Shown here in pieces: positions 8,760 through 31,394 of a stretch of 32,000 nt of DNA. This DNA comes from Raphidiopsis brookii D9 (GTDB lineage Bacteria > Cyanobacteriota > Cyanobacteriia > Cyanobacteriales > Nostocaceae). Below the pieces are notes generated by a model. The model saw only the letters and a program-made list of their open reading frames with translations, was not told the origin of the DNA and did not search any database. Every line of letters starts with the position of its first letter. Position 1 is the first letter of the stretch. A program made the position numbers and the translations under genes. The DNA is taken from NCBI GenBank assembly GCA_000175855.1, contig ACYB01000035.1:300001-332000 (forward strand), read 5' to 3'.

Positions 8760-9401
8760 ATGGAAGACATTCAATTAGTGACCATCAGCATTGGAGATGC
8801 TGCCAAAGAATTAGGAGTTTCAGTAGACACAATTAGGCGTTGGGCTGACCAAGAAAAAATTCGATATGAACGCGCTCCCAGTGGACATAGACGCTTCTAT
8901 CTAGCAGACATCAAACGAATTACACCACGAGACTTGAAACAATTAGATGACCGTATAACAATTAATTACGCAAGAGTTTCAAGTCATGATCACAAGAATG
9001 ATTTAACAAGACAAATCCAAGTCCTAGAAGCTTTCAGTGGTTCTAATGGTTGGCAGTTTGAAACCATTCAAGATTTGGGAAGTGGTTTGAACTACAACAA
9101 GAAAGGATTGAAAAAGTTACTGACTCGAATACTCAAAGGCGATGTAGGCAGGTTAGTACTAACTCACAAAGACAGATTGTTACGATTTGGTGCGGAGTTA
9201 GTATTTGCAATCTGCGAGGATATGGAAACCGAAGTTGTGATTATCAACAAGTCTACAGAAGAATTGAGTTTTGAACAGGAATTAGTCCAAGATATGATGG
9301 AGTTAGTAACTGTCTTTAGTGCGCGTCTTTATGGCTCTAGAAGTCCTAAAAACAAAAAGTTGATTGATGGAATATCAAGTGTAATTGATGAGGTGAAATG
9401 A
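8760..9401 (+). CDS. tnpA: IS607-family serine-recombinase transposase TnpA (MerR-like HTH plus resolvase catalytic domain)
   Basis: N-terminal HTH IGDAAKELGVSVDTIRRWADQEKI, followed by the serine-recombinase motif INYARVSSHDHKNDLTRQIQ. At 213 aa the length is typical. Confidence 0.85.
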   Translation: MEDIQLVTISIGDAAKELGVSVDTIRRWADQEKIRYERAPSGHRRFYLADIKRITPRDLKQLDDRITINYARVSSHDHKNDLTRQIQVLEAFSGSNGWQFETIQDLGSGLNYNKKGLKKLLTRILKGDVGRLVLTHKDRLLRFGAELVFAICEDMETEVVIINKSTEELSFEQELVQDMMELVTVFSARLYGSRSPKNKKLIDGISSVIDEVK

Positions 9402-9819: not shown

Positions 9820-9856
9820 AAATGGCGATCGCGAAACATTCACCTATCCCAAATTA

Positions 9857-12800
9857 TTAACTATCCTCTATCAATTCTAATGGTGGTAATTCTTTTACAA
9901 TTCTCACTGTCTCCATACTAACTTTGACTATCCTCTTGATTAAATCCACTATATAACGCGGATCTTCTGACCACTGGTTAGGATTATTGACTATTCCGCT
10001 ATCTTTATCCTTGGTGACTTTATATCTCTCCATTATCCATTCTAATGGTGATTTTCCATTGACTATATATTCGTAGCTTTCTAGGGGAATTTGAGAGAGG
10101 GTGATTTTACTATTATAAATAATGGTGGTTTTATCTATTCCGTTCTTGTTTTTACCAAATACCATTTTTCTACTTGGTAATCTTCATTATCTAAGTATAC
10201 TTCTACTGAAAATTCTTTGATTTCGTAAGGTTCTATGGTTTCATAGTTTAAATGATAGTGCGCTAGTTCTGCTCCTGCTTGACTGAATGACGAAAAGTCT
10301 TTTATGTAGGGAATTCTGGGTAACATCTTTTTTAGATCTGCTGCAAATCTTTGTTTATATTCGGGAGAGTGCAAAATTCCATATATGTAATAAAATATGT
10401 CTTCTTTTGTGATGCTTTTATCTTGGTATTTCTTTTGGAAGTCTTTTAAGATGTTATCTGGAATGTTTTCTTTTTTTGTGTATTCTTCTGTGGTTACTGT
10501 TGCAAATATTTCTCCTAGTTCGCTTTGTTTTTCGTATGTATATAAGGGGAAGCATTGACTCTTAGAAATTAGTTCTAAGTCAGGTAAAAAATTAGTTATT
10601 AAAGCCGAAAATTCTTTTGTTGAACCAACTCCGGTTACCGCAATTACTAAATTCTCAACATTTTGATTGGGGAATATTTTCGGCATTTGGTAAAGACGAT
10701 TATTTAAGTCTTTATTATAGTAATAGTTCTGTTTGCAGAAAGGACGGTAGATACTTCTGACAACTTCACTAGAATTAAAATTATGTATTATTAATTTACC
10801 ACAGTCTTCCTTTAGTTCTCCAGACCAACTTAATTTTTTTGGGATCAGTATCAATAAACCGTTCTACTTTTTGTTTTCTTTGTTCAGCATTACTTAAAGT
10901 TTGACCCTCTAGAAATTTCCTAAAACCTTCAACTTGTTGATTATAAAAATCAATCATTCTCGTCATATTATCAATAAGTGATTCCTGGGAGAAATTATAA
11001 ACCCAAGCATCACGATTTTGTTTTAACTCCACTTGAATACACATCAAAAATAGTTTTAGTAGTTCGGTCTTTCTTATCACCTAAAGAAATGAAATTTTCA
11101 AAATCAACGTTCCTTTGATTAATCCAATCATAATTTTTGTTAGGGGTGATTTCTTTCCACGGGATAGTAGAAATATTACCGAAGTCTTTAATAATATCTA
11201 GTTTTTCCGTTCTTTTTAAATAATCACCAATATCATAATATAATAATTGACATTTCTGTTTTTTATCAGGATTTTTAATAAGTATAGTAATAGCTATCGG
11301 TGCTAAACTTCCTCCTTTTCCGCCCAATGCAGCAAATAAAGGATGTCCTTCTTTGCGACAAATTTCTCCAGAAGTTCTTCCATTTTCTCTTAAATTAAAG
11401 TAATAAATATTTGTAAAGTCATCTACTAAGCATTTTCTTAACCCATCAGCAGAGTTACTATCTAAGAAAGAACCATTAGTAACAAAACAAACTATACCTT
11501 TTTCTTGTATTCTATCAGTTGCCCAACGAATAGCTCTGATATAAGAATCATAAAGACTGTTTTTTAATGTAGCACTAGAATATTTAGCGTAGGTACTTCT
11601 AATCTTATCATCTAACTTGGGATATGACAGATTTTTATTCCCATCATTTTCACTTTTCTGTCCAGCTGAGTAGGGAGGATTTCCAATAATTACGGTGATA
11701 TCTCTCTGCTTTTGTGATATGACTCTTTGATTGTTCTCTGGAAAAATATTCTCTAATAAATAACCCTCATTTTCAAACATCTGAAATGTGTCTGTTAAAA
11801 CAATGCCATTAAAGGGTTCATATTCCCCCTTTCTGGTGCTGAAAGAATTTGATTCTTCTTGTATACCAATCAAAAAATGGTAACTCTCTTCAATGTTTAT
11901 GGCTGCAATATAGTAGGCCAATAAAACAATTTCATTACAATGCAATTCATGGCTAAATTTCCGTTTTAGATCTTGTGGTTTTATTAGTCCACTTTGCAAT
12001 AGTCTTACCATGAAGGTACCTGTACCAGTAAAGGGATCTAAAATATGTACACCCTCATCCGTTAATCCTACTCCAAATTCTTGGTGCAGGGCAAAATTAG
12101 CACTTTTGATAATAAAGTCTACTACTTCTACTGGAGTGTAAACAATTCCTAGTCTTTCTACTAGTTTGGGGAAAGCTGTACGAAAGAATTTATCGTATAA
12201 TTCAATGATTATTTTCTGTTTGCCTTCTGCATTATCAATACCACTAGCACGCTCTCTCACACTTTTATAGAATTTTTCTAGGGTTTCTACTTCTTTCCCT
12301 AAAGATTCCTTCTCTAACGTGTCTAACATTCTTTGCATTGTCTGTGAAACAGGATTATTTTTCGTAAACTCATACCCTTCAAATAAGGCATCAAATACGG
12401 GTTTGGTAATTAAATGTTGTGATAACATTTCAATGGCTTCATCTTCCCTTACATTGGGATTAATATTTTTATGCAGTCCTGTTAAGAATTCTTCAAATGC
12501 TTTTCTAGGTCCTGATTGGGATTTTTCTAATAGTCCTTTGATTCTGGAAGTATGATTTTCAGCTATTTTGGCTACGTCTTTAGCCCAATCTTCCCAATAA
12601 CGACGATTTCCACATTTAGTTACTATTTTAGCATAGATGGCATCTCGCCATTCTTGAATGGGAAAGTTTAATTCTAGTTGTCGATTAAAATTTTTACTCT
12701 TTTTGGTTGATGAATTATCATTTCTCTCTCCACCAACTCCAACTATACTAATTTTTTGCGGTCGGTTTTTATTCAAATCAATTTTTATTGACTGTGTCAT

Positions 12801-14744
12801 TAAATCTGTCATCATGGGCACGTAAGGCTTGTAATACTTGCCAAATTACTTTATATTTCTCATTATCTTTTAAAGCAACATCGGGAGACATATCCGCAGG
12901 TATACCAACGGGTAAAATGATATAACCATATTTTTTCCCTCTGCTCTTCTCATAACTCTCCCCACAGACTGCACCACGTCTACTACGGAATTACGGGGTG
13001 TGAGGAATATCACCGCATCTAATGCTGGAACATCCACACCTTCGGATAAGCATCTTGCATTAGAGAGTATACGACAGATATTAGAGCTGTTTATTTTATT
13101 TATTTCTTTTGAGGAGGGTTCAGATTTTAACCATTCTAATTTTTCATTTCTTTCCAGGGCATTTTGTTTACCATCAACGTGGTCTAATTCGCATTGTAAA
13201 ACTGTTTCATCATCCGGGTTTTTGTATTGATAGTCATTGATAATACCGGCAAATAGGTTAACTATTCTCTGTGAATCTTTAATACTACGAGAGAAAGCAA
13301 CAGCTCTTTTCATAGGGGTACTATCTTCTATTTCTCCCCCTTGTATATCTTTAATTAACCGTTTTGCTAAACCATTCCAGCACCCAACGATTTTTACAGC
13401 ATCATCTAATTTTAGTTCGTTATCTGCATCTGCTAATTGTTGTTGAAATGTGGCACTAACAAATTTTTCATCTACTGCTAACACCATCACTTTATAATCT
13501 GTGAGTAAACCGGTGCTGACAGCTTCACCAAAACCTAAACGATGAAATTCCTTTCCGAAGGTATGTAGGTCGTCCATAGAATATAAGGAAGCATCATTTT
13601 CCTTAGCTTGCACTTTGGTGTCATCACTGTAAATTCTGGGAGTTGCGGTCATATAAAGCCGTTTTTTGGCTTTGAGAAAATCTTGGTCGTGAACTTTTGT
13701 GAAGTAAGATTCATCTGTTCCAGTAATAGTTATACCTGTGGTTCTATGTGCTTCATCACAGATAATTAAATCGATTTCTGGTAACCCTTTTTGTTGTGCT
13801 TCTGATATAGCTTGAATAGATTGGTAGGTGGAGAAGATAACAGTTAATTTTGGTGGGTTATTTTGATTTGTCTTTTGGATAGTTTGATAAGACTTAATAA
13901 TATCTTGGGCCTTAGTAGTGGGAGGGAAAGCCAGGTCATTGACTGTGATATCAGCAGTATCATCATTTTGAGATTTTGTCTTATTTTTACCCACATTGAC
14001 ATCAGAGCAAACTGCTATGCTATGAAAATCGATTTGCCTTTCAGCAGTCCATTCTCTTAAAGTTTGAGAAAGTAAGGAAATAGAGGGTACTAAAAAGAGA
14101 ATTAAATGACTATGTTTGGGAACATGCTCAGCGATTTTTAAAGCGGTAAAGGTTTTACCAGTACCACATGCCATGATTAATTTACCTCGGTCAGCGTGTT
14201 CAAATTGAGTGAGGACTTTTTCTAATGCTATTTGTTGATGGGGGCGAATATGCTTTTTAGGTTTTAGTTGTAAAATATCAGGATTTTGGAGACTATATTT
14301 ATTCCAATCTATAGGACTATTTTCTAAATCATAAATTGTGGCACGAATGACAGGAATTTGTTGATCATCTAATGCTGCTTGGGCGTGTTTGCTCCATTTT
14401 GCGGTTGTAGAGATAATCATCCGTTTTTTAAAAACCTTAGTTCCCGAGGCGGTAAAAAAGGAATCTATATCTGATTTTTGTAGTGTTTGGTTTAAATCAT
14501 AACATTTACATTGAATAGCACAGTAGTCTCCTGTATCTCGGATCATTCCTACTAAATCAATTCCGGTGTCTGGCATGTTTGCTCTTTTAGGAAAATCCAT
14601 CCACAACCAAACCTGACTAAAATACTCGTTGTAAATTGGGTCTGTTTTGAGATAATTCAACATTAACCTTTCAAATTTATCACCTTGTTCACGCGTTGAG
14701 GAGGAAGTTTGTTTGATTTCGTTGAGTATTTTTTGGATTGTCAT
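9857..14744 (-). pseudogene. Type ISP restriction-modification enzyme (LlaGI/LlaBIII-like single polypeptide: Mrr-type nuclease, SF2 helicase, gamma-class N6-adenine methyltransferase, TRD), interrupted by five 1-nt frameshifts
   Basis: Five consecutive minus-strand ORFs (12870-14744, 11010-12821, 10796-11080, 10135-10854, 9857-10165) read as one ~1630-aa protein. PD-(D/E)xK-like GIDLVG...YCAIQCK. Helicase motifs: I ACGTGKT (14151-14165), II DEAH (13746-13757), VI QSVGRVMRR. Methylase motifs: DPFTGTGTF and NPPY (11670-11681). C-terminus: IPLESYEYIVNGKSPLEWIMERY. Breaks at T6 12931-12936, T5 12782-12786, T4 11016-11019, T7 10834-10840 and T5 10165-10169 (plus-strand runs). Confidence 0.85.
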
Positions 14745-14955
14745 GTTTATATTTCTCCTGTGGTATCTGGCTTTTATAAGGTTTAGTATATTCTGTGGAT
14801 TCTAACTGGTTTTTGATGAAGTGAGTATGTAAGATATAAAAAAACATACTTTTTTATATTTATTAATATATCTACAAATAAAGTTGATTAGGGGACTGTC
14901 CCGTCTATTTTAATCCCTTACTCTGTCTATTGTCTAAACCCATGCCCTTAAGTAA

Positions 14956-17483
14956 ATGCCGTTCAGAGAGAATTTTGGTAAACTTTTGTTACAAAAGCAT
15001 TCTTTTTTTGCGCTTTACTGTACAGTGGTGACAATACACCTTACTTTTATTAGGCCTGTCAATGTGAGCAGCTTTCAGAACTCCTACGAAGTTTTCCAGT
15101 CAGTAGAAAGGAAAGCTAATTTTGTTAGTGCTTTTTGGCATCGATTCAAAACGGAGATTATTCAACATCTACCCCATTCTTATCACGATGAAATTTATCA
15201 GCTTTCTCAAAACTTACAAAAGGCTTTAGATATATTAATCGATGAGTTACGTAATCCTGTTCTTGTGTTGGCAACTACTGGTACGACTAGTAGTGGTAAA
15301 AGTACACTGGTAAATTTTCTGTGCGGGGCAGATGTTCTGCCAACGGCGGTGGGTGAAATGAGTGCAGGGTCTGTAACAATTGAATACAGTGAGCAAAGGT
15401 GTTTAACTATTGAAGAAACTCCAGGTGCTCTATGGGAATGTGGTCGATGGGAAAATATCACTGATGATCAAATCTGTAGAAAGTTGGAACAGGTTATGAT
15501 CACTTATCTTGATCATCAGAAAGACCAAGCTGTTCTGGCTTATCCAAGGTTTTTTCTCTCTTATCCTTTTAGGTTTTTTAAGGAGTATAAAAATATTTAC
15601 CGGAGGGAGTGAAAGTTAAGATCCTTGATTTACCAGGTTTATCTTATGTGGGTGATGAAACCAGTATGGAGGTAATTAGACAATGTCGTGAGGCTTTGTG
15701 TTTAGTTACTTATAATAGTCAGGAAACTGATCCTCAGAAGGTTAGGAGTCTTTTATTGCAGGTTGTAGAAGAGGTAAAAGGACTGGGGGGATCTCCTGAT
15801 CGAATGCTGTTTGTTTTTAATAAGATTGATGTTTTTAGAGATGATAAGAATTGGGAAGAGAGTGAAAGACGTTTTATAGAAAAAACAACAAAAAACATCA
15901 AGGATGAATTAAGGATACATTTAGGTGAGTATACTCAAGCGATTAAAAATTTAAAGTTGATTAAGCTAAGTACTTTGCCAGCACTGCTGTCCTTACAAAT
16001 TTTGAGTGATAATTATAATCATAGTAATACGGCTTGTAGGGATGCTGATCGTAAATTTAATAAATTGATTGAAGAAAGTATTTTAGAAGACTTACCGCGA
16101 AACGCAGAAAAATGGTCTGGTCAAGATAGACGACGTATAGCTCAGGATTTATGGCGAAAATCCTATGCTCAGGAATTCCAGGAATGTTTAAATGAGCATA
16201 TTGCTGAGCATTTTCCTAAGTTAGTGATTCCTCAAGCAATAGAAAGATTTAATACAAGCGCGGGAAATAGTATAACCCAATGGACAGTGCAAACCACTAC
16301 GGCAATTCTCAATAGCTCGGAAGAAAGTTATCAGCAAGAATGCCACAGAATCTCTCAAGTTAAGTCTGATTTAGATCACTTTATTCAAGTGAGTAGTAAC
16401 AGCTTGCGAAACCCTTTTGAGAAAATTAGTCAAGAGATCGGGGAGTATTTTGATAAAGAAAATAAGGATGTGCAGCATCTAAGTAAGACTTTAACGTCTG
16501 TGGTCATAGAACTTCAGAATACGGAACCTTGTAGAAATAATCCTGAAATTCAAGAGAAATTAGTTCCTTTGTATGATTGGAGAGATTCTTTATCTAGGGA
16601 AGTTAGTACCATTTTAGAAGCGGTAACATCTTCCTTGGAAAAAGGGACTGTCACCCTAGATCATCCCAACTTTAAAAAGGTTAATAGTTACCATGTAAAA
16701 TTATTGGAAGGTAATATTATAAGATTAATCAAACTTGGCTATAGTCATGATATTGCTAAACATGGCAAGACCATTGAAGCGAAAACCGAGCTGGAGAAGG
16801 AGAATCTTAGGCAAACAAATAATGAAATTAACGAATTATCTATCCATCTAAGTTTAATTATACCTCAAGTATTAGAGAAAACTTCTGAACAGGAGATCCA
16901 GCGAATATATGAAGCCGTTAATGGGTTATTTGCGTTTTATCTAGAGTTTTTAGAAGAGGAGTGTAATGAAATTGCTGGGAACAAGCTTGGGATCAATTTT
17001 TCTAAGTCAGAACTTGTGCAAGTTAAGAAAGATCTTAAATTCATTCAACCGAAATTTAAGTCTGACTTTGCAATTGAAACCCGAGAGTATACTGAAGAAA
17101 CAAGAAGTTGGGACTATTGGTTTTGGTTAGTTCCGAAACAGGTAGTATGCTCCAGTGATAATGCAAAAATTCCCAAGATGAGAGATATTCTCACCACTTG
17201 GGAGCTGGAAATCAAAAAGATCGATCCAGAGTTGTTAAAACCTTTCATAGAATGGTTGCTAGAACAAATTGACAACTTAAAAAAAAAGGTAGATAAGACT
17301 CAAAGTGAGATTATTAAGAGTTATAGAGATAGATTAGAAAAGGCTAGAAAGGAAGTTAATTTTGACTATGAACAACGGCAAAGTATTTGGCAACCCATGC
17401 AGAAAAGAGCTAAAGAATTAGAGTGGGAATTTTCCCAATTAGTCAATTTTGAAAAACCTCAGGTAAATAACAATGATAAATAA
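14956..17483 (+). CDS. bacterial dynamin-like GTPase 1 (Dynamin_N-type G domain plus long helical stalk); frame broken once at an A5 run; true start uncertain
   Basis: ORFs 14956-15612 and 15609-17483 join into one protein. G1 GTTSSGKS (15280-15303) is followed by TLVNFLCGADVLPT. G3 DLPG is at 15627-15638 and G4 NKID at 15819-15830. The frame switch must fall in 15589-15609, because a stop at 15588-15590 closes the downstream frame before that point. Restoring A5 (15589-15593) to A6 gives ...FFKEYKKYLPEGVKVKILDLPG. The first ~35 codons look non-coding; GTG at 15063 is an alternative start. Confidence 0.8.
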
Positions 17484-18357
17484 GCTGATCGAACCATTGT
17501 TTAACCGAATATACCCCCAAATCAAAAGTAAAGAGAAAGGGGTATTATATCAGATCATAAAGTTGATAATCCGTGAGGCTAAACTAGAGCAATTAGTCAA
17601 TTCTCAGGAAATTTATCTTAGCTTTGAAATACAAGAATCTTCCAAACTAGAAGATGATTTTCGCATTGTTTATGAAATACAAGAGTCCTTTCTAAATTCT
17701 CTGATACCTTTTACTCATGATATAAAAATGGTTATTGATGAGATAAAACAGCAGTTAAAATCCTATATAGGTATTTTTGAAAACTTAGGAAACCTAGTTT
17801 TCATAAACAATTGTTTTCAAGCAGAGGCAAAAAAACAAAAACAAATGGAAATTCTTACATTGACTGCTGTTTTTTTAATTGGACTAGCAGTTGTTGGGGT
17901 CTTAGTCTTACCAAACAGGAATAAACCTTCATCTTCCAAGGCAATTCCTGCTACCAAATCTACGGCAATATGTCTAGCACTTCCGGCATTTGCGGTCTTT
18001 GGTTTAAAGCAAAGGGAGATGGCAAGTGAGCAAGTTACTGACGATTTAGCGGAAGAAGAGATAGCAAGGGATAAAATTATTGAACTAGTTGAAGCGGCTA
18101 CAGAATTCCTATGCGTTGAAGCCGATAAGCAAATAGCTATGAAGACTACAAACCAGGAAGTTAAGCCAGACAGTCAACTTAAATTTTACATTTGCATTCG
18201 CATTGAAATTCCCAGTGAAAACGACATTCTAGAGGAAAAAACTAAATATGGAATTAAAGATAACCTTCGGAACCTTCACCCCGATACAAAAGGTAAAATT
18301 ATCCAACTGGGTCGTTTAACAGATCCTTCCAATCTTCGGTTGTTCAATCGGATTTAA
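17473..18357 (+). CDS. hypothetical membrane protein with a central two-helix hydrophobic hairpin, encoded between the two dynamin-like genes
   Basis: 294-aa ORF. The ATG at 17473 overlaps the dynamin-1 stop (17481-17483) by 11 nt. Hydrophobic segments are EILTLTAVFLIGLAVVGVLVLP (17848-17913) and STAICLALPAFAVFGL (17959-18006). Both flanks are acidic and helical. I recognise no family. Confidence 0.7.
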   Translation: MINKLIEPLFNRIYPQIKSKEKGVLYQIIKLIIREAKLEQLVNSQEIYLSFEIQESSKLEDDFRIVYEIQESFLNSLIPFTHDIKMVIDEIKQQLKSYIGIFENLGNLVFINNCFQAEAKKQKQMEILTLTAVFLIGLAVVGVLVLPNRNKPSSSKAIPATKSTAICLALPAFAVFGLKQREMASEQVTDDLAEEEIARDKIIELVEAATEFLCVEADKQIAMKTTNQEVKPDSQLKFYICIRIEIPSENDILEEKTKYGIKDNLRNLHPDTKGKIIQLGRLTDPSNLRLFNRI

Positions 18358-18369
18358 GAAGTTAATTTT

Positions 18370-20604
18370 ATGGATTGGAAATCTGCTTCATCTTACTATG
18401 AAACCAGTCTGAATAATGTTTTAAACATCCAACATTATGCGATTGAGTTAGCTAAACTTCCTTTAGCCCAAGTTCCTTCCAAACTAACAGAAATACTTAT
18501 CCAAGAAGCAATACCTGCTAGTCGTCAACTTGAAAGACTCAGAAAAAGAGAATTTCGTATTGCGGTGGTGGGTTTGGAAAAAGCTGGAAAGAGTACTTTT
18601 ATTAATGCTTGGCTAGAATGTGATTTGCTCCCTACTAAAGGTGCAAGATGTACCTTTACTACTACTCAAATCTATTCTGTTAAAAGTGAATCAGAACAAA
18701 GATTGGAAGTACAAACACGTACCCAAGAACAATTTGCTCATCTTTTAGCAGAATTAGCAAGTGTTGGTGCTAAAGAAGACCTAACAACTATTAAAGAAAA
18801 TGAACTGACTCTAGAAAAAGTGAGAAGGGAAGGTAATTTGACCATTCCCTTTTCTCGACTGGAAGATATTCGAGAACAACTGATAAAGTATGTGGCCAAT
18901 GAAAAATATGCCCATGCTGTTCTAGAAGCCAGACTTTATACAAACAAACTCGCTCAAGCAGAAGGAATTGTCTTTTATGATGTTCCTGGCTCGGACTCAG
19001 GGTTGGCTAAACATGTTGATGAAGCTCGAAAAATGCTCTCGGACTGTGATGCAGTAATCGTTATCCAGCGTTTTCGCAGTATTCGAGAAGCTGAATTAGA
19101 AATTATTAAATTTACAGAAGAGGGGGATAAAAATATCACTATTGCTGATAAACTCTTTGTCTTTTTAAGTCACATTGATTCTCTGGGTAGCCCACAAGCT
19201 GTTAAAACCCATGTTCAAGAAGCAGCTCAGGACTGGTTTAGACGTGCCAGTTTACCAAAAGAGCGTATTGCTTCTGGTTCAGCAGGAGCTTATTTAGTAT
19301 TAAATAATTTCGCGGAGGAACATACCCAGTTAGAAATCGGTCAAGCTAGTAATATTCGTGATAGGTTGAGCAATTTAACGGGAATTATAGACGATGAAAT
19401 TTTGAGAACTCAAGCAACGGGAATTCCTGACATTAAACAGAAAATTTTCAATTATATTAATACTGAGCGGGTTGCCATTCTCAAAAAGCGGTGTGAAAGT
19501 TCTATTAATAAAATTGTGGACACATCACAGAAAATTCACCACCTTGTCAGTCAAAAATTTCCTGAAAGTGCAGAAGAGGCGCAACGCTTAGAGGGGGAAA
19601 GAAAACGAATTACTTTTACCGAATGGTGGTATGGTAAATGGGAACAAGTTAAAGCTGATTTACAAAGGTTTTATGAATCATCGGTGATGAATAATCTCTA
19701 TGAAAACCTTGATACTACTTACGGTAGTGTTAAAAAGTTTAGAGAGCGTTATCTGGAGTTAGTAGAAATAGAAATGGAGGAATTAAGACAGGAAACTTTG
19801 AGAAAAAAGGAAATTATCTTTGATGCTAACTCTTTTCCTGACTTTGATAAGTTCAAAGCTAATTTTGCCTGGCGAGATGATTTATATGCAGATATTATAA
19901 TTGTTGTTGATAATTTAGCCCGACAATTGGCTCTAGAATTACAAGATGAAGCCTTGAAATTAGTTAACTATATGACTAGTTTATTGTGGGGAAGTTCACA
20001 AATTAAGGAAAGGCTAATTGGCAAATTAGAAAACGAATTTTTAATGCGGTTAGAAAATGGTTTAAGTGTCTTATTTTTGAGATTTGCTCGTCCAGTTGCT
20101 GAAGCTTTAATTCGCGGTCCGGTTAACAGTGACACTCGTACGCAAATTGTTAAATCACTTGGATCTGATATGGAATTAATTGATAATTACTATAAGGGGG
20201 AGGAACCCGCATTTAAGGTTTTAAAAAAATATGTCAAGTATGGACCCGATCTACTGTTTAACTCCAATCTTCGTGAACAAATACTAGGTGTTACAGGGAT
20301 AGCTAAGGAAGTTATTGGTATGGCCATACACAAAGAAATGAACTCTGAGGAATTAATTTCCCCCAGGGAGGTTGTGACTTTGGAAGTGATTAATGACATT
20401 AATGCTTTTCAGGAATACTTACGGAACGGTATTTTTGAAGCAGCGGGTTTTCAATCCTACTATACTCAAGAATTAAAAAGATTGGTGGATCTTTTTCGAG
20501 ACAAAGAAGGGACATGGACGGGAGTTGCTTTTAATGAGTGGTTAGAAGAAAATCCCCGACTTTTAGCGGAATTACCACCCAATTTGAAGTCACAGGAGTT
20601 TTAG
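18370..20604 (+). CDS. bacterial dynamin-like GTPase 2 (Dynamin_N-type G domain plus helical stalk)
   Basis: 744-aa ORF starting 12 nt after the previous stop. G1 GLEKAGKS (18571-18594) is followed by TFINAWLECDLLPT. G3 DVPG is at 18979-18990. The G4 position reads SHID (19168-19179) instead of N/TKxD. About 470 aa of helical sequence follow, with no hydrophobic segment. Confidence 0.8.
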   Translation: MDWKSASSYYETSLNNVLNIQHYAIELAKLPLAQVPSKLTEILIQEAIPASRQLERLRKREFRIAVVGLEKAGKSTFINAWLECDLLPTKGARCTFTTTQIYSVKSESEQRLEVQTRTQEQFAHLLAELASVGAKEDLTTIKENELTLEKVRREGNLTIPFSRLEDIREQLIKYVANEKYAHAVLEARLYTNKLAQAEGIVFYDVPGSDSGLAKHVDEARKMLSDCDAVIVIQRFRSIREAELEIIKFTEEGDKNITIADKLFVFLSHIDSLGSPQAVKTHVQEAAQDWFRRASLPKERIASGSAGAYLVLNNFAEEHTQLEIGQASNIRDRLSNLTGIIDDEILRTQATGIPDIKQKIFNYINTERVAILKKRCESSINKIVDTSQKIHHLVSQKFPESAEEAQRLEGERKRITFTEWWYGKWEQVKADLQRFYESSVMNNLYENLDTTYGSVKKFRERYLELVEIEMEELRQETLRKKEIIFDANSFPDFDKFKANFAWRDDLYADIIIVVDNLARQLALELQDEALKLVNYMTSLLWGSSQIKERLIGKLENEFLMRLENGLSVLFLRFARPVAEALIRGPVNSDTRTQIVKSLGSDMELIDNYYKGEEPAFKVLKKYVKYGPDLLFNSNLREQILGVTGIAKEVIGMAIHKEMNSEELISPREVVTLEVINDINAFQEYLRNGIFEAAGFQSYYTQELKRLVDLFRDKEGTWTGVAFNEWLEENPRLLAELPPNLKSQEF

Positions 20605-20816
20605 TTTGGAAGTCAGTGAACGTCTACGACAATTATCAATTGCTTTAAAGAGAACTGGGGATTAAATGGTCGATCGTTACCCCATACTTAAGTATGAACA
20701 GTGTGATTTAAAATATGCTATGCGATCTCCCGGGCGCGAGTCCAGTGCAAGTGCTTCACAAACGCACTTCCCTGAGTGTTTGCTTTACTAATGATCAGGT
20801 GATTGATCCCCCCAAT

Positions 20817-20831
20817 CCCCTTAAAAAGGGG
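20817..20831 (+). terminator. short stem-loop CCCCTT-AAA-AAGGGG with a T-rich tract about 10 nt downstream; possible operon terminator
   Basis: The inverted repeat is read directly from the sequence and TTTTT follows at about 20841-20845. It sits 213 nt after the dynamin-2 stop. The stem is weak and the function is inferred. Confidence 0.3.
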
Positions 20832-21140
20832 GCTAATACTTTTTATTTAGTTTATGATGAGTTAGAGCTGCTTGTACTGTAATTGATGGACTAAATCCTA
20901 GTGGAGAAAGAAAAAACCATAGTACAGAACCTACTAAATTTAACAGCCGTTAATGGGCGATCTCGCGTAGCGAGTACTTTGTAAACGCGCATATCCGTAG
21001 AAAAGATAGCATTATTATCTTACCCACATTAGACCCATTTTTTGGAGATGGAAGCTCAAACTTTAGGTGAGTTTTTACATATTACAGCAAGTATAGCTAT
21101 AACCATTAACGCTGTCGTAAGCGTTCTAGATAAATCCATA

Positions 21141-21678
21141 TTATAAACGGCTTTTTACTACTTTTGCTGGAACACCTAAAGCTACGGAATAGGGAGGAAT
21201 ATTTTTAGTTACAACTGCTCCCGCACCAATAACACTTCCCTTACCAATAGTAACCCCATCTAGTACGGTTACTCCGTGTCCCAACCAACAATCATCTTCA
21301 ATTACAATCCCCTGACAACTGACACCTTGCTTTTTGATGGGTAATGAACGTTCTGCAAAATTATGATTGTTAGCAAAAATACCACATTGGGCTGCTATCA
21401 TACATTCCCTAATAATTTACGGAGGTGAGTTAGGAATCAAGACCAGACATAACACTTTCAATGATGCTCTAGTTTTTATCAATTCTGACTGATCTCCACT
21501 AAATCACGAGATTATCGAGATTATATTTTTTATAAAACTTAGATAAAACTTAGGGTGGATTGTCACCTACTTCGGCCATAATGTTAAACTTGGCCATTGG
21601 TGCAAACAGGTAAGCACTTCCTCGACAGCTATGTCGTCTGTCTGGTAACAAATTTGTAGTGTATACTGCTTTAGTCAT
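21141..21678 (-). pseudogene. left-handed beta-helix (hexapeptide-repeat, WcaF/maltose O-acetyltransferase-like) acetyltransferase, decayed
   Basis: The 3' part (21141-21401) is clean: ...HNFAERSLPIKKQGVSCQGIVIEDDCWLGHGVTVLDGVTIGKGSVIGAGAVVTKNIPPYSVALGVPAKVVKSRL. A stop lies just upstream of its Met. A 42-codon ORF (21550-21678) begins where a ~180-aa gene of this family would start. The stretch between carries stops in all frames plus tandem duplications. The 5' extent is inference. Confidence 0.55.
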
Positions 21679-24820: not shown

Positions 24821-26272
24821 TTATTCAACCTTTTTTCCTTGAATCTTGGACAAAAGTTCTTCTTTAATCCGATTCAAAATAGAGGTCTCATCCAAATTGG
24901 ATAATATGCTGGTTACTACTGCTTTGGGACCTTCTGGACCCCAGGTGGCCCCATTAGCTAGGTAGGCTTTAGTTACTTGCCCAATTCCGTAAGATGATAC
25001 GCCTGCTACTCCTGCTTGAGTAATCGCTACGGATAGATAAGGGACTAAAGTTATTCCAGCTGTGGCAGTTGCGGACAAACCTAATATGGTTTTCAATCCA
25101 CTTAAACCTAGGTTTGCCAGCAACTCGCTTACTCCAATTCCACCCATGCTCAAGGCGATTTTTTGCAGCAGTTTTACAGCGCCACTCTGAGTCATTTCAA
25201 TGCCATAGAGCTTAGACAAACCTAAAATTATGGTTATGTCAATAGCTATGCTACTGACAATATCAACCACAGTAACGGGATTGAGCGCAATAGCTAAAGC
25301 TTTAATCATTACTGCTTTCCAAATCAACTGATTAGCACTTTCTTCTCTAATGACTAGCTTTCGCTTTACTATTTGTTCACTCACAGTACTAGCGTAGAGC
25401 ATGGAGTTTAAAGTTACTAATGCTTTCCCTTCTCGTTGCAAAATCTCCAGAATTTTCAGCTTTAATTCTTCTACTTGGGCCTTTCCTGCTTCTAACCTTA
25501 TAGTCCTAGCTCCATCAGCTTGAACTAGGGCGGTCTTAACTAGAGGTGAAGCAGCACACATGACTATTTCCTCAGGTGAAACTAATTCTTTAACCCTGTC
25601 ATCCCGAATTTTTTCATAAATTGCTAGGCGGTCATTTATAGGGTACTGGTCAATTTTATTGAAAACTAAAATAATCGGTTTACCTACTGTTCTTAACTGG
25701 GAAAGAGCTACCTGTTCGATCTTAGTCATATCGCCAGCAATAACAAATAAAATTAAATCGGCTTGTTTTGCTACCCTTTGTGCTAAAGCAGCACGAGTTT
25801 CTCCATCAACTTCATCTAATCCTGGTGTATCTACTAAAACTATTTGGGATTGATCTGGTGAGAGAAAAGTAGCTTTGAACGTACCCATAGCTTCTTGGGA
25901 GATAGTCCAGTTAACTTTTTGTTCCGCACGGGTAACCCCATGTAAAGGCCCAGTTTCAAATATTGGCTGACCGACCAAAGCATTTAGAAGAGAAGACTTG
26001 CCTCTTCCTACCATGCCAAAGGCTGCTATTTGTACCACCATGTCTTCTAATTTTCCCAACATGGTTTCCAAATCTGCTATTTCACTCTCTAGACCAGACA
26101 TTTCCTGGGAGGTTAGGTCAAGACGGGTTACTAAAGTTTTTAAAGCTGTTTTAGCTTGTCCATAGTTCAGTTCCGCTTGAATATTTCCAAAACTGAAAAT
26201 CGCCTCATCCAGTTCTGCGTCGGAAGAATTATTGTTTTCGGGTTGGGGTAATTTAGATGTGATATTTGTCAT
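24821..26272 (-). CDS. GTP-binding protein with a C-terminal hydrophobic membrane domain (DUF697/YcjF-like, as I recall the family)
   Basis: G1 [17 protein letters not shown]3 VDTPGLDE, G4 FNKID. The last ~170 aa are glycine- and hydrophobic-rich ([26 protein letters not shown]..., [19 protein letters not shown]...). Confidence 0.7.
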
Positions 26273-29236: not shown

Positions 29237-31394
29237 ATGGCAGAAATTGATAAGTCAATATCCTTTGATGGACGGGATATTCGACTGAAGGTCGGATTGT
29301 TAGCCCCTCAAGCAGGTGGTTCGGTGTTGATAGAATCGGGGGACACTGCCGTTTTGGTGACGGCCACAAGATCAGAAGCCAGAGAGGGCATTGATTTTCT
29401 TCCCCTAACAGTAGATTATGAGGAAAGACTGTACGCTGCTGGAAGAATACCCGGTGGTATTATGCGCCGGGAGGGTCGTCCACCAGAAAGGGCTATTTTA
29501 ACTAGTCGTTTGATTGACCGCCCATTGCGTCCCCTGTTCCCCTCCTGGTTAAGAGATGACCTGCAAGTTATTGCTTTGACTCTTTCTATGGATGAGCTGG
29601 TGCCACCCGATGTGTTGGCTGTAACTGGAGCTTCTATTGCTACTCTGATTGCCCAAATTCCTTTCTATGGACCAATGGCAGCAGTACGTGTGGGTTTAGT
29701 TGGGGATGATTTTATTATTAACCCCACCTACGCTGAAATAGAAGCTGGTGATTTAGATTTGGTGGTTGCTGGCTCCCCCGATGGGGTAATTATGGTGGAA
29801 GCAGGAGCAAATCAGTTACCTGAACGGGATATTATTGAGGCCATTGACTTTGGTTATGAAGCAGTTAGGGATTTAATTCAAGCGCAACGAGATTTAATTG
29901 CTGAACTGGGTTTGACTATTGTTCTCCAAGAACCTCCAATACCCGATCAAAGTCTGGAAAACTATATCCGCGATCGCGCTAGTGAGGAAATCAAAAAAAT
30001 AACTCGCTCAGTTTGAGTTGACTAAAACTGAACGCGATGCTGCTCTGGATGTAGTTAAAAGTGCAATTGCATCTAGCATTGAGTCACTTGGGGAAGAAGA
30101 TCCTATTCGCACAGCTGCAACAGCTAATAGTCAAGTACTAACGAATACTTTTAAAGACATTACTAAGTACTTTATGCGTCGTCAAATTGTTGAAGACAAT
30201 GTGCGAGTAGACGGTCGTAAGTTAGATGAAGTACGTCCTGTTTCATCCCAGGTAGGACTCCTACCTCGTCGTGTTCATGGTAGTGGATTATTTAATCGTG
30301 GATTAACCCAAGTGTTATCAGCTTGTACCCTTGGCACACCGGGAGATGCCCAAAGTTTAAGTGATGATTTACAAGTGGATCAGTCTAAACGTTACTTACA
30401 TCATTACAATTTCCCTCCTTTCTCCGTAGGTGAAACTAAACCCTTGCGGGCGCCTGGAAGACGGGAAATAGGGCATGGAGCCTTAGCGGAAAGGGCAATT
30501 TTGCCTGTGCTTCCTACCAAAGAGCAATTCCCCTACGTCATTAGGGTGGTCTCGGAAGTTCTTTCTTCCAATGGCTCTACCTCTATGGGATCAGTTTGTG
30601 GATCTACACTAGCTCTCATGGATGCGGGTGTTCCCATTACTAAACCTGTCAGCGGTGCTGCTATGGGTTTGATTAAGGAAGGATCGGAAGTACGAGTACT
30701 AACTGATATTCAAGGTATTGAAGACTTTTTAGGCGATATGGACTTTAAAGTGGCCGGTACTGATACAGGAATCACCGCACTACAAATGGATATGAAAATC
30801 TCTGGCTTGTCTCTAGACGTAATTAAACAAGCCCTGGAGCAAGCTAAGGATGCTCGATTGCACATTTTGGATAAGATGTTGCAAACTATAGACAAACCAC
30901 GAACTGAAACTTCACCTTTTGCACCACGACTAGTCACAATTAAAATTGATCCTGATATGATTGGTTTGGTCATCGGTCCAGGTGGTAAGACCATCAAGGG
31001 TATTACGGAGGAAACCGGTGCTAAGATTGACATCGAAGATAGTGGTATTGTGACTATTTCCGCTATAGATGAAAGTAGAGCCAAACGGGCAAAAAGTATA
31101 ATTCAGGGCATGACCCGCAAGCTCCACGAGGGGGATGTGTACTTAGGTCGTGTAACAAGGATCATACCAATTGGGGCTTTTGTGGAATTTTTGCCTGGTA
31201 AGGAGGGCATGATCCATATTTCCCAGCTGGCCGATTATCGTGTAGGTAAGGTGGAAGATGAAGTAGCTGTTGGTGAGGAGGTAATTGTCAAGGTTCGTGA
31301 AATTGATAGTAAGGGAAGAATTAACCTGACACGATTGGGTATTCACCCAGATCAGGCAGCTGCTGCACGAGAGGCCGCAGCAACAAATCGCTAG
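29237..31394 (+). CDS. pnp: polyribonucleotide nucleotidyltransferase (PNPase); frame broken once near 30001-30016
   Basis: ORFs 29237-30016 and 30018-31394 together form a complete PNPase. Motifs: [65 protein letters not shown]1 [34 protein letters not shown]. Removing one base at AA 30001-30002 gives ...[22 protein letters not shown]. Confidence 0.9.

What the first reader, a model, noticed from the sequence alone, without database searches (positions are those of the whole stretch)
14956..20604. Three-gene operon: dynamin-like GTPase, two-helix membrane protein, second dynamin-like GTPase, set inside a defence-type insert
Seen: three same-strand genes packed with an 11-nt overlap (17473-17483) and a 12-nt gap (18358-18369). 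Gene 1 has Dynamin_N-type G1 GTTSSGKS+TLVNFLCGADVLPT, G3 DLPG and G4 NKID, then about 550 aa of K/E/Q-rich helical sequence. Gene 3 has G1 GLEKAGKS+TFINAWLECDLLPT and G3 DVPG, then about 470 helical aa. Neither GTPase has a hydrophobic segment; the only membrane hairpin is in the small middle gene. Established: paired bacterial dynamin-like proteins (Nostoc BDLP, B. subtilis DynA, C. jejuni DLP1/DLP2, ETEC LeoABC) remodel or repair membranes. DynA delays phage lysis. LeoA+LeoBC pairs were reported as an anti-phage system ('Dynamins', Millman et al. 2022, later named Eleos). Inference: this is an Eleos-related system partitioned differently, with the membrane anchor as a free-standing gene between two soluble GTPases. 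It sits head-to-head with a Type ISP restriction enzyme in an IS-associated, HIP1-free insert. A housekeeping thylakoid or cell-membrane remodelling role is the main alternative.
Basis: partly seen in the sequence, partly recalled or inferred. Interest (0 to 1): 0.85.

Follow-up and report, generated by a model that had tools for sequence, protein, structure and literature searches.

The report
Three-gene dynamin-like cassette, decaying here
Two dynamin-like GTPases with a small membrane protein between them form a three-gene unit found in at least 80 cyanobacterial and methanotroph species; it is distantly related to the Eleos anti-phage system but has not been described, and this window's copy appears damaged by frameshifts.

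Summary
The three genes are present at the stated junctions: an 11-nt overlap and a 12-nt gap. Two corrections apply.

- **Gene 1 is interrupted.** A one-base loss (A6 to A5 at 15589) breaks it. Its real start is probably GTG 15064.
- **The middle protein is not a two-helix hairpin.** It has a conserved N-terminal domain, one transmembrane helix, a variable linker and a conserved C-terminal alpha/beta domain.

Gene 3 is a true dynamin-like protein (AlphaFold2 pLDDT 87.5; best structural matches SynDLP, Nostoc BDLP, mitofusins).

The layout of an ~800-aa GTPase, a 250-300-aa membrane protein and a ~765-aa GTPase recurs in nearly all of 80 loci that have room for it. These span cyanobacterial orders and Methylococcales. 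The cassette has variable flanks, lower GC than its flanks in 53 of 55 loci, and 4.5-fold fewer HIP1 sites. It is inherited as one unit and is disrupted in about a quarter of loci.

At family level, gene 1 matches LeoBC and gene 3 matches LeoA only weakly. The window's own gene 3 fails both models.

Verdict: an accessory, horizontally moving, Eleos-like dynamin module with an extra conserved membrane subunit. A defence role is plausible but untested. Near-identical strains carry intact copies; this window's copy and the adjacent Type ISP enzyme are frameshifted.

The parts
15064..17483 (+). Gene 1: dynamin-like GTPase A (LeoBC-like), ~806 aa when repaired. In this window it is split into ORFs 14956-15612 and 15609-17483.
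   Evidence: ORFs. Dynamin_N 4.8e-8. The intact orthologue matches LeoBC at 8.6e-8. 38 of 43 family members match LeoBC. G1 GTTSSGKS, G3 DLPG and G4 N[KR]ID are invariant across the family. The start is inferred from the family consensus.
15584..15589 (+). Frameshift site in gene 1: A5 here against A6 in intact orthologues. It falls between switch 1 and the DxxG motif.
   Evidence: Alignments to L001 and L089. Three-frame translations. Inserting one A restores one continuous reading frame from 14956 to the stop at 17483 (842 aa from that upstream ATG).
15280..15303 (+). Gene 1 P-loop (GTTSSGKS).
   Evidence: Read directly from the sequence. Invariant in 43 homologues.
17473..18357 (+). Middle gene: 294-aa membrane protein of an uncharacterised family, with an N-terminal helical domain, one TM helix, a variable linker and a C-terminal alpha/beta domain.
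   Evidence: ORF. Alignment of 48 homologues. AF2 model pLDDT 69.9. No Pfam, PADLOC, NCBIfam, PDB or BFVD match.
17839..17913 (+). Transmembrane helix of the middle protein (residues ~123-147, ILTLTAVFLIGLAVVGVLV).
   Evidence: Kyte-Doolittle 19-residue score 2.8. AF2 helix at residues 114-141. A central hydrophobic helix is conserved in most homologues, including ones too diverged for sequence detection.
17950..18354 (+). Conserved C-terminal alpha/beta domain of the middle protein. It begins with the ALCLVVPAS-type strand and ends ...FNRI.
   Evidence: This is the most conserved part of alignment A3. AF2 strands and helices have pLDDT ~80-90.
18370..20604 (+). Gene 3: dynamin-like GTPase B (LeoA/BDLP/SynDLP-like), 744 aa here against 764 aa in intact strains.
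   Evidence: Dynamin_N 2.5e-14. AF2 pLDDT 87.5. Foldseek matches SynDLP 4e-13, BDLP 3e-11, mitofusin, Cj-DLP1/2, IniA, and LeoA at 5e-7. The family profile matches SynDLP at 1.5e-16 in PDB sequences.
18571..18594 (+). Gene 3 P-loop (GLEKAGKS).
20596..20599 (+). +1 T (T4 against T3) five bases before the stop. It removes the last ~20 residues of gene 3.
9857..14744 (-). Type ISP restriction-modification enzyme, divergent from the operon. It is broken into at least 4 ORFs by homopolymer frameshifts, and its target-recognition region differs from that of sister strains.
   Evidence: Pfam Mrr_cat_2, ResIII, ISP_coupler, Eco57I/N6_Mtase and Type_ISP_C spread over four ORFs. The gene is intact (1620-1624 aa) in L001 and L089. 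Indels listed.
8760..9401 (+). MerR-HTH serine recombinase (IS607-type transposase-like) at the left edge of the island.
   Evidence: Pfam Resolvase plus MerR. The same arrangement is seen in L089.
9826..21410 (.). Low-GC, HIP1-free island (Type ISP plus the trio plus a degraded right end). The D12 methylase present in some sister strains is absent.
   Evidence: GC 31-37% against 38-44% outside. HIP1 positions. In L001, HIP1 sites at 2394 and 14466 bracket exactly ISP, the trio and the D12 methylase. Alignment breakpoints.

Best explanation
The region encodes one copy of a conserved, self-contained three-gene cassette.

**The three parts**
- GTPase A (gene 1, ~806 aa): a very divergent member of the dynamin superfamily that resembles LeoBC.
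- A membrane protein of ~260-300 aa with one transmembrane helix.
- GTPase B (gene 3, ~764 aa): a full BDLP/SynDLP/mitofusin-type dynamin-like protein that resembles LeoA.

**Shown here**
- The layout, the tight gene junctions and the GTP-binding motifs are conserved across cyanobacterial orders and in Methylococcales.
- The three genes are inherited together.
- The cassette is accessory. It has variable flanks, lower GC, few HIP1 sites and frequent disruption.
- The Cylindrospermopsis copy is closest to Chroococcales copies for all three genes, which indicates horizontal transfer.

**Inferred**
- The two soluble GTPases lack any hydrophobic paddle. They probably form a heterotypic pair, as other operon-paired bacterial dynamins do.
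- The middle protein probably brings them to the membrane, acting as anchor or adaptor in place of a built-in paddle or transmembrane tip.
- The module probably works as an Eleos-like anti-phage or membrane-protection system, using GTP-driven remodelling or sealing of the cytoplasmic or thylakoid membrane.

**This window**
The module is probably inactive. Gene 1 is frameshifted, gene 3 is C-terminally truncated, and the neighbouring Type ISP enzyme is multiply frameshifted. Near-identical strains have all of these intact.
For: **Layout and conservation**
- The trio is intact in C. raciborskii-group assemblies and in Microcystis.
- Of 80 loci from species-representative genomes, nearly all with room show the same trio.
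- Where the middle gene escapes sequence search, the gap still holds a 247-305 aa ORF with a central TM helix.
- The gap from the middle-gene stop to the gene 3 start is 11-15 nt in 39 of 48 loci.
- G motifs are conserved in both families.
- Pairwise distances of the three genes are congruent (r 0.81-0.92, Mantel p 0.001). The nearest relatives are the same Chroococcales loci for all three genes.

**Dynamin identity**
- Pfam, AF2 plus Foldseek and profile searches against PDB sequences.
- Family-level LeoBC and LeoA matches.
- No hydrophobic segment or conserved tip loop in the GTPases.

**Accessory and mobile character**
- No flank family occurs in more than 9 of 80 loci.
- GC is lower than the flanks in 53 of 55 loci, and HIP1 density is 0.15 against 0.69 per kb.
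- Gene 1 is disrupted or absent in 13 of 62 loci, and gene 3 in 5 of 62.
- Neighbours are dominated by Uma2 and Rpn-like nucleases, MADS/RM methylases, AAA_15/21 ATPases, TnpB, Csx1, GmrSD and Type ISP.

**Precedent**
- A two-gene dynamin system (Eleos) protects against jumbo phages and needs both P-loops (bioRxiv 10.1101/2022.05.11.491447).
- DynA membrane binding is needed for phage defence (PMC12998192, title and abstract seen).

**Decay in this window**
Against: - There is no experimental or expression evidence for any member of this family. Literature searches found none.
- The Eleos HMM matches are weak (at most ~1e-13), and the window's gene 3 fails both models. LeoA ranks only 41st among structural matches.
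- Defence enrichment was judged only qualitatively. No genomic background was available, and cyanobacterial genomes are generally rich in nucleases and transposases.
- In Microcystis and Snowella the cassette sits at a fixed place just downstream of psaA/psaB.
- The host range is cyanobacteria plus type I methanotrophs. My own knowledge, not a test here, is that both groups have internal membrane systems. This fits a housekeeping membrane role equally well.
- Physical interaction of the three proteins was not tested.
- The topology of the middle protein is unresolved. A single TM helix would put its two conserved domains on opposite sides of the membrane.
- No structural model of gene 1 could be made.
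- Whether the window's frameshifts are real or assembly errors is not settled, because PNPase also carries one.
Confidence: 0.5

Rival explanations
1. The cassette is a housekeeping or stress module that maintains membranes, not an immune system as such. The dynamin pair plus its membrane adaptor would fuse, repair or shape thylakoid or intracytoplasmic membranes or the plasma membrane. Any effect on phage would be incidental, as with DynA-type membrane repair.
For: - Gene 3's closest solved relatives are SynDLP and Nostoc BDLP, which are cyanobacterial membrane-remodelling dynamin-like proteins, and the mitofusins.
- The family is concentrated in cyanobacteria and Methylococcales. My own knowledge, not a test here, is that both have extensive internal membranes.
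- In Microcystis and Snowella the cassette lies directly after psaA/psaB.
- Many cyanobacteria carry several dynamin-like protein clades that are thought to serve membrane dynamics (PMC5827413).
Against: - The distribution is patchy and the flanks are variable.
- GC is systematically lower and HIP1 sites are fewer.
- There is evidence for transfer between orders and between phyla.
- About a quarter of loci carry a disrupted copy.
- No membrane-biogenesis neighbour recurs.
- In C. raciborskii the cassette sits in a HIP1-free island with a Type ISP enzyme and a methylase.
Confidence: 0.3
2. The cassette is an abortive-infection system in which the middle protein is the toxic membrane effector, not an anchor. 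The GTPases would sense infection and release or assemble the single-pass protein to depolarise or permeabilise the membrane.
For: - The middle protein is the fastest-evolving component: mean pairwise identity 0.31 against 0.57 and 0.68 for the GTPases.
- It has one strong TM helix plus conserved soluble domains.
- It is translationally coupled to both GTPases.
- My own knowledge, not tested here, is that many defence systems use small TM effectors.
Against: - Some family members have a middle protein with no strong hydrophobic helix (Phormidium-type, 205-220 aa), and one variant has no middle gene at all (L049).
- The middle protein shows no similarity to known pore-forming or effector families.
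- Known dynamin-based defence (DynA) protects membranes and does not destroy them (PMC8844932 abstract).
Confidence: 0.15
3. The trio and the Type ISP enzyme form one composite system, so the head-to-head arrangement would be functional.
For: - They share a divergent intergenic region and one HIP1-free island in all C. raciborskii-group assemblies examined.
- Both are frameshifted in this window.
Against: Type ISP is not a conserved neighbour elsewhere. No flank family occurs in more than 9 of 80 loci, and ResIII/helicase-type neighbours are found in only 3 of 149 de-duplicated neighbours. Microcystis has the trio without it.
Confidence: 0.04

Closest known systems
Eleos (formerly 'Dynamins'; LeoA + LeoBC) anti-phage system
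   Same: - Both have two different dynamin-like GTPases in one operon. The LeoBC-like gene comes first and the LeoA-like gene second.
- Both are accessory and are found next to defence and mobile genes.
- The P-loops are conserved.
   Different: - The HMM similarity is only weak, and the window's gene 3 fails both models.
- The proteins are about 200 aa longer than the LeoBC model (601 positions) and LeoA (564 residues in 4AUR).
- A third, conserved, non-GTPase membrane protein sits between the GTPases.
- The GTPases have no paddle or hydrophobic tip.
- No phenotype is known.
ETEC LeoABC three-gene locus (PMC4159319)
   Same: Three genes with a membrane-anchored small product plus two large dynamin-type products.
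   Different: - LeoC is the N-terminal half of a GTPase domain (P-loop, switch 1) with a 22-aa anchor, and LeoB is the rest of the same dynamin-like protein.
- The gene order there is anchor-bearing fragment first.
- Here the small protein has no GTPase part and lies between two complete GTPases.
Heterotypic bacterial dynamin pairs: C. jejuni DLP1/DLP2, Nostoc BDLP1/BDLP2 ('Tandem A/B'), B. subtilis DynA
   Same: - Paired genes are encoded side by side.
- Gene 3 has the same overall fold (Foldseek 2e-9 to 3e-11).
- The likely mode of action is heterotypic assembly on membrane.
   Different: - Those proteins bind membrane through their own paddle or tip, and no dedicated membrane subunit is known for them.
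- Sequence similarity is confined largely to the GTPase domain.
- Gene 1 and gene 3 here are barely alignable with each other.
SynDLP (Slr0869) of Synechocystis
   Same: It is the best structural and profile match of gene 3 (4e-13 and 1.5e-16), and it is cyanobacterial.
   Different: In the SynDLP paper's title and abstract it is presented as one protein forming its own ordered oligomers (PMC10104851); no partner GTPase or membrane subunit is described there, though I did not read the full text. It is only ~14% identical to gene 3.
Mitofusin/Fzo1 and atlastin-type dynamins with built-in transmembrane anchors
   Same: In both cases a dynamin-type GTPase works from a permanent transmembrane anchor. 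Gene 3 matches mitofusin minimal domains (about 1e-9).
   Different: In those proteins the anchor is part of the same polypeptide. Here, if the inference is right, it is supplied in trans by a separate gene.

Membership tests
Dynamin superfamily / bacterial dynamin-like proteins | Dynamin-type GTPase domain with G1-G4 motifs | tested here: met
   - Pfam Dynamin_N scores above the gathering threshold for both proteins: 33.6 and 54.1 bits against a cut-off of 27.
- Gene 1 family: G1 GTTSSGKS, G3 DLPG and G4 N[KR]ID are invariant.
- Gene 3 family: G1 GxEKxGKS and G3 DVPG are conserved. G4 is atypical, with only the Asp conserved.
Dynamin superfamily / bacterial dynamin-like proteins | Helical neck and trunk (stalk) following and flanking the GTPase domain | tested here: met
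   - Gene 3: the AF2 model (pLDDT 87.5) has long helical bundles. It aligns over its full length to SynDLP and BDLP (more than 800 columns, E 4e-13 and 3e-11).
Only indirect support exists, from the LeoBC HMM alignment over residues 34-460.
Dynamin superfamily / bacterial dynamin-like proteins | Own membrane-binding element (paddle, PH domain or TM tip) | tested here: not met
   No hydrophobic segment is present (maximum Kyte-Doolittle 19-residue score 1.1-1.3). The low-confidence tip loops of gene 3 are neither conserved nor hydrophobic.
Dynamin superfamily / bacterial dynamin-like proteins | GTP hydrolysis coupled to membrane binding or remodelling | not testable with these tools
   Needs biochemistry.
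Eleos (LeoA + LeoBC) | One protein matching the LeoA model and one matching the LeoBC model | tested here: not met
   - Window gene 1 fragments match LeoBC at 1.4e-5 and LeoA at 0.0095. The intact orthologue matches LeoBC at 8.6e-8.
- Window gene 3 has only LeoBC at 0.42 and no LeoA match.
- At family level there are weak but consistent matches: 38 of 43 to LeoBC and 29 of 41 to LeoA, best about 1e-12 to 1e-13.
Eleos (LeoA + LeoBC) | [quoted passage not shown] | tested here: not met
   The two GTPase genes are separated by a conserved third gene in nearly all loci.
Eleos (LeoA + LeoBC) | Frequent co-localisation with known defence systems (60% in Millman et al.) | tested here: inconclusive
   Defence-type and mobile genes are the commonest neighbour categories. 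No background-corrected score could be computed.
Eleos (LeoA + LeoBC) | Anti-phage protection that depends on both P-loops | not testable with these tools
   Needs an experiment.
LeoABC-type split dynamin | The small gene encodes the N-terminal part of a GTPase domain (P-loop, switch 1) plus an anchor | tested here: not met
   The middle protein has no P-loop and no GTPase, Pfam or PDB similarity. In this window the frameshift happens to split gene 1 at the LeoC/LeoB-equivalent point, but intact orthologues show this is secondary.
Cyanobacterial BDLP 'Tandem A/B' clade (Nostoc BDLP1 type; Jilly et al. 2018) | Close sequence relationship to N. punctiforme BDLP1 or its upstream partner | tested here: not met
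   Single-sequence E-values to 2J68 are 0.02-0.05. The profile E-value is 4e-10 and is confined to the N-terminal helices and P-loop.
Type ISP restriction-modification enzyme (neighbour) | A single polypeptide with Mrr-type nuclease, SF2 helicase, coupler, N6-methylase and a Type_ISP_C recognition domain | tested here: not met
   All the domains are present in the right order but are spread over at least 4 ORFs in the window. The single polypeptide (1620-1624 aa) is found in L001 and L089. The window copy is a pseudogene or contains assembly errors.

The most novel reading that the evidence does not exclude
The trio could be a previously undescribed, widespread three-component immune module of cyanobacteria and methanotrophs. 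A fast-evolving single-pass membrane protein, with one conserved domain on each side of the membrane, would sense events at the cell envelope such as phage adsorption, DNA injection or membrane damage. It would then recruit or activate a heterotypic pair of paddle-less dynamin GTPases on the cytoplasmic face. This would be a membrane anchor and sensor supplied in trans, an arrangement not known for any dynamin.
Probability: 0.25. Interest if true: 0.75.

Novelty: new variant of a known kind. Interest (0 to 1): 0.55.

Why it matters
- **Bacterial dynamins.** They are almost always paired, yet how the pairs find and act on membranes, and how the Eleos defence system works, is unknown. This family keeps the pair, removes any built-in membrane-binding element and adds a dedicated, conserved membrane subunit. 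That gives a natural dissection of 'motor' from 'anchor or sensor' that could be tested directly.
- **Detection.** The cassette was found in 80 retrieved loci, and up to 370 species-representative genomes matched in the scan. These include the bloom formers Microcystis, Dolichospermum and Cylindrospermopsis. It is not covered by the PADLOC Eleos models at this locus, so cyanobacterial defence inventories may miss it.
- **This window.** The practical message is narrower. This copy looks inactivated, so intact orthologues should be used for any experiment.

Tried and rejected
- **Genome scan with exact peptides.** A scan using exact peptides of gene 3 found no relative. The alignment-based scan succeeded. 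No locus above 79% identity was returned, so I infer that the species-representative Cylindrospermopsis/Raphidiopsis genomes lack the cassette. This is an inference only.
- **Gene 1-middle fusion in Pseudanabaena L049 (1026 aa).** Rejected. Only the first ~470 residues are gene-1-like. The rest is a different Cys-rich region with no match to the middle-protein profile.
- **Phage or plasmid carriage.** No relative was found in IMG/VR contigs or PLSDB plasmids.
- **Promoter and terminator scan.** At or below chance level, so uninformative.
- **Island attachment sites.** Short repeats shared by the left and right borders in L001 are permuted in order and could not be interpreted as target duplications.
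- **Exact-protein look-ups.** The neighbouring DUF697 GTPase and the Band-7 protein were not on record.
- **Literature.** No paper links Microcystis with 'dynamin family protein'. Jilly et al. 2018 define six cyanobacterial dynamin-like protein clades but do not mention a membrane protein between two such genes. I could not map this family onto their clades with certainty. It is probably among their unclassified group, since Phormidium sp. OSCR and Phormidesmis entries are listed there.
- **Middle protein.** Fold searches against PDB and BFVD and a Pfam scan of all 48 family members gave nothing significant.

Full report
**1. What is in the window**

Between 14956 and 20604 the plus strand carries four ORFs, not three: 14956-15612, 15609-17483, 17473-18357 and 18370-20604. 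The first two are halves of one gene in different frames.

Alignment to intact orthologues shows the cause. One A is missing from an A6 run at 15589. Adding it back restores one continuous reading frame from 14956 to the stop at 17483 (842 aa from that upstream ATG).

Forty-three homologues begin with the residues encoded from GTG 15064 (consensus MS...YKVF). The real product is therefore probably ~806 aa, and the hydrophobic stretch encoded upstream of 15064 is probably not translated.

So are the quoted motifs.

**2. The two large proteins**

Both score above Pfam's Dynamin_N threshold.

For gene 3, an AlphaFold2 model built on 41 diverse homologues is confident (pLDDT 87.5). All of its top structural matches are dynamin-superfamily proteins:

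| Match | Foldseek E-value |
|---|---|
| SynDLP | 4e-13 |
| Nostoc BDLP | 3e-11 |
| Mitofusins, C. jejuni DLP1/2, IniA | 7e-10 to 1e-7 |
| MxB | 3.5e-8 |
| LeoA (rank 41) | 5e-7 |

A family profile gives the same order against PDB sequences: SynDLP 1.5e-16, BDLP 4e-10, Cj-DLP1 4e-7, and no LeoA.

Gene 1 is far more divergent. Its profile reaches only IRG-type GTPases at ~4e-3 and BDLP at 0.02. It aligns with the gene 3 family only over the N-terminal helices and P-loop (hhalign E 1.4e-5, 87 columns).

GTP-binding motifs are conserved in both families. Gene 3 has an atypical G4. Neither protein has a hydrophobic segment, and gene 3's trunk-tip loops are neither conserved nor hydrophobic.

**3. 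The middle protein**

It has no match in Pfam, PADLOC, NCBIfam, PDB sequences, PDB folds or viral folds.

An alignment of 48 homologues and an AlphaFold2 model (pLDDT 69.9) agree on its parts:

- a conserved helical N-terminal domain (~residues 1-76);
- a variable region;
- one strongly hydrophobic helix (~123-147, Kyte-Doolittle score 2.8);
- a variable Pro- and polar-rich linker;
- a well-conserved C-terminal alpha/beta domain ending ...FNRI.

The 'second hydrophobic helix' of the finding is the short conserved ALCLVVPAS segment. It is predicted with good confidence as the first beta-strand of the C-terminal domain. The protein is therefore better described as single-pass than as a hairpin.

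Charges flanking the helix weakly favour a cytoplasmic C-terminal side: 3.6 K+R against 1.9 D+E on the C-side, and neutral on the N-side. Topology remains unresolved.

**4. The layout is a family trait**

- The middle protein is 96% identical to Cylindrospermopsis raciborskii proteins.
- Intact trios lie at the same place in at least six assemblies of that group.
- Microcystis has the same trio (809, 263 and 768 aa) at a different locus.
- An exhaustive search found 92 clusters (at 50% identity) related to gene 3 at E<=1e-30.
- An alignment-based scan of species-representative genomes found 370 relatives. The best 80 loci span Chroococcales, Nostocales, Oscillatoriales, Moorena, Phormidesmis and others. 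They also include Methylococcales and a Competibacteraceae MAG.
- In nearly every locus with room, a gene-1 homologue and a 250-300-aa ORF with a central hydrophobic helix precede gene 3. This holds even where the middle ORF is too diverged for sequence detection.
- The gap from the middle-gene stop to the gene 3 start is 11-15 nt in 39 of 48 loci.
- Pairwise identities of the three genes across 37 intact trios are strongly correlated (r 0.81-0.92, Mantel p 0.001).
- The middle gene evolves fastest: mean identity 0.31, against 0.57 for gene 1 and 0.68 for gene 3.
- Variants exist. Phormidium-type loci have a shorter middle protein with no strong hydrophobic helix. One Pseudanabaena locus lacks the middle gene and has a different C-terminal half in gene 1.

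**5. Accessory and mobile character**

- No flanking gene family occurs in more than 9 of 80 loci.
- The trio has lower GC than its flanks in 53 of 55 loci (mean -6.4 points). It carries 4.5-fold fewer HIP1 sites (0.15 against 0.69 per kb). By my own calculation, composition alone would predict roughly a 2.6-fold difference.
- For all three genes the C. raciborskii copy is closest to Crocosphaera, Microcystis and Geminocystis copies, not to other Nostocales. For gene 3 this is 78-79% against ~67%. This indicates transfer between orders.
- Gene 1 is disrupted or absent in 13 of 62 loci, and gene 3 in 5 of 62.
- The cassette was not found on viral contigs or plasmids.
- In the window itself there is no HIP1 site between 9826 and 24387, and GC drops to 31-37%.
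- In strain L001, HIP1 sites at 2394 and 14466 bracket exactly Type ISP, the trio and a D12 methylase.

**6. Neighbours**

Recurrent neighbours are DUF2887/DUF4351 (Rpn-like) and Uma2 nucleases, DUF29, KAP NTPase, TnpB and ABC/AAA ATPases.

Among 149 de-duplicated immediate neighbours, the commonest PADLOC families are MADS methylase-type proteins, TnpB/Cas12f-like proteins, Csx1, and PtuA/GajA/AriA-type ATPases. The commonest Pfam families are Uma2, AAA_21, ResIII/helicase and SMC_N. No membrane- or thylakoid-biogenesis family recurs.

Microcystis has GmrSD, a GIY-YIG protein, AAA_15/21 ATPases and an ISL3 element just downstream, but psaA/psaB just upstream.

This is suggestive of defence islands. 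It is not a background-corrected statistic.

**7. Relation to Eleos**

The published system is two consecutive dynamin-like genes. It is found next to defence genes in 60% of cases and protects B. subtilis from jumbo phages, with both P-loops required (bioRxiv 10.1101/2022.05.11.491447). It was later named Eleos, comprising LeoA and LeoBC (bioRxiv 10.1101/2022.12.12.520048).

The PADLOC models give weak but directional matches:

| Query | LeoBC | LeoA |
|---|---|---|
| Gene 1 family (43 members) | 38 match, best 2e-13 | 9 match |
| Gene 3 family (41 members) | 19 match | 29 match, best 9e-12 |

The window's gene 3 matches neither model at 1e-3, so the locus fails the Eleos membership test while still being a distant relative.

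The ETEC LeoABC three-gene form is different in kind. LeoC is half a GTPase domain plus an anchor, and LeoB is the remainder of the same protein (PMC4159319).

**8. State of this copy**

Strain L089 (GCA_002114155.1) shares the window's left flank and has an identical middle protein. It has an intact Type ISP enzyme (1624 aa), gene 1 (819 aa as called) and gene 3 (764 aa).

Across the trio, the window differs from L089 by 8 substitutions plus the two homopolymer indels. All 7 single-base indels relative to L089 lie between 10165 and 21066. There are none in 8.4 kb of flanks that are 99.1-99.7% identical.

In the 10.6-kb right flank, the only coding frameshift is in PNPase at 30001. Homopolymer content is similar: 802 runs in the island against 691 in the right flank.

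The concentration in the island (about p 0.03 by a simple binomial of my own) favours real decay of a dispensable island. The PNPase lesion means assembly error cannot be excluded.

**9. Interpretation**

The shown facts support a self-contained, horizontally moving, three-gene dynamin-like module that is distantly related to Eleos.

Three further points are inferences from anatomy, context and precedent:

- that the middle protein anchors or regulates the two paddle-less GTPases at the membrane;
- that the GTPases act as a heterotypic pair;
- that the module defends against phage.

The main rival is a non-immune membrane-maintenance role. The host range keeps it alive: cyanobacteria and type I methanotrophs, which to my knowledge both have internal membranes. 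So do the SynDLP/BDLP affinity of gene 3 and the position next to psaAB in Microcystis.

I found no description of this three-gene family in the literature available to me.

Noticed in passing
window 10559-11700 (Type ISP gene, minus strand): The target-recognition and methylase-proximal part of the Type ISP gene is a highly divergent mosaic compared with strains L001 and L089, while the rest of the gene is 98-99% identical. It looks like a specificity-domain swap between strains.
   Followed up: partly
window 29237-31394, lesion at 30001: PNPase, normally a single 718-aa protein, is split by a one-base insertion (ATACT to ATAACT) next to an A7 run. It is either an assembly error or an unusual real lesion in a gene usually considered indispensable.
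   Followed up: partly
window 3881-5920: This ORF has the GH65 N-terminal domain, only the first 66 of 371 positions of the GH65 catalytic domain, a fragment of the C-terminal domain, and then a complete HAD/beta-phosphoglucomutase-type domain. It looks like an internal deletion or fusion of a disaccharide phosphorylase gene.
   Followed up: no
window 15589, compared with ETEC leoC/leoB: The frameshift splits gene 1 between switch 1 and the DxxG motif. This is the same point at which the Leo dynamin is naturally split into LeoC and LeoB. The downstream ORF starts at a GTG directly preceded by GGAGGGA. It is probably coincidence, but a split GTPase could conceivably still assemble.
   Followed up: partly
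L083-L088 (Methylococcales MAGs and Methylobacter psychrophilus), L082 (Competibacteraceae): The same trio, including a recognisable middle protein in L083 and L088, occurs in gammaproteobacterial methanotrophs at 42-45% identity for gene 3. This is a cross-phylum distribution shared by two groups that have internal membrane systems and freshwater habitats.
   Followed up: partly
L049 6786-9866 (Pseudanabaena MAG): This is a variant cassette. Gene 1 is 1026 aa, with only the first ~470 residues homologous, followed by a Cys-rich (zinc-ribbon-like) region. There is no middle gene before gene 3.
   Followed up: partly
L001 1741-2359 against 13292-13375 and 14569-14854: Short direct repeats (78-97% identical, order permuted, one duplicated in tandem) are shared by the intergenic DNA on both sides of the island. 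Part of this repeat is also at window 20805-21100. They could be dispersed small repeats or traces of the insertion event.
   Followed up: partly
window 24821-26272 (minus strand): A second GTPase with MMR_HSR1, partial Dynamin_N and DUF697 domains lies 4 kb downstream. It is conserved and intact in all related strains. It appears to be a housekeeping gene unrelated to the cassette.
   Followed up: no
gene 1 family alignment A4 (loci L009-L088): 13 of 43 gene-1 homologues also give weak hits (best 4e-6) to the PADLOC 'mad8' model of the MADS defence system. Neighbours in several loci hit mad2, mad3 and mad8. The meaning is unclear.
   Followed up: no
L005/L009/L010/L011/L013/L079 (Microcystis, Snowella): In Microcystaceae the trio sits at a fixed position directly after psaA-psaB and a DUF29 gene. 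In Microcystis (L005, L006), defence-type and mobile genes lie between it and rbcLXS.
   Followed up: partly
window 20605-21410 against L001 13211-14578: The D12 (Dam-type) methylase that follows gene 3 in L001-L003 and L091-L094 is absent from the window and from L089. In the window the hexapeptide-transferase gene next to it is reduced to an 86-aa ORF (21141-21401) by a G3-to-G2 change at 21066.
   Followed up: partly
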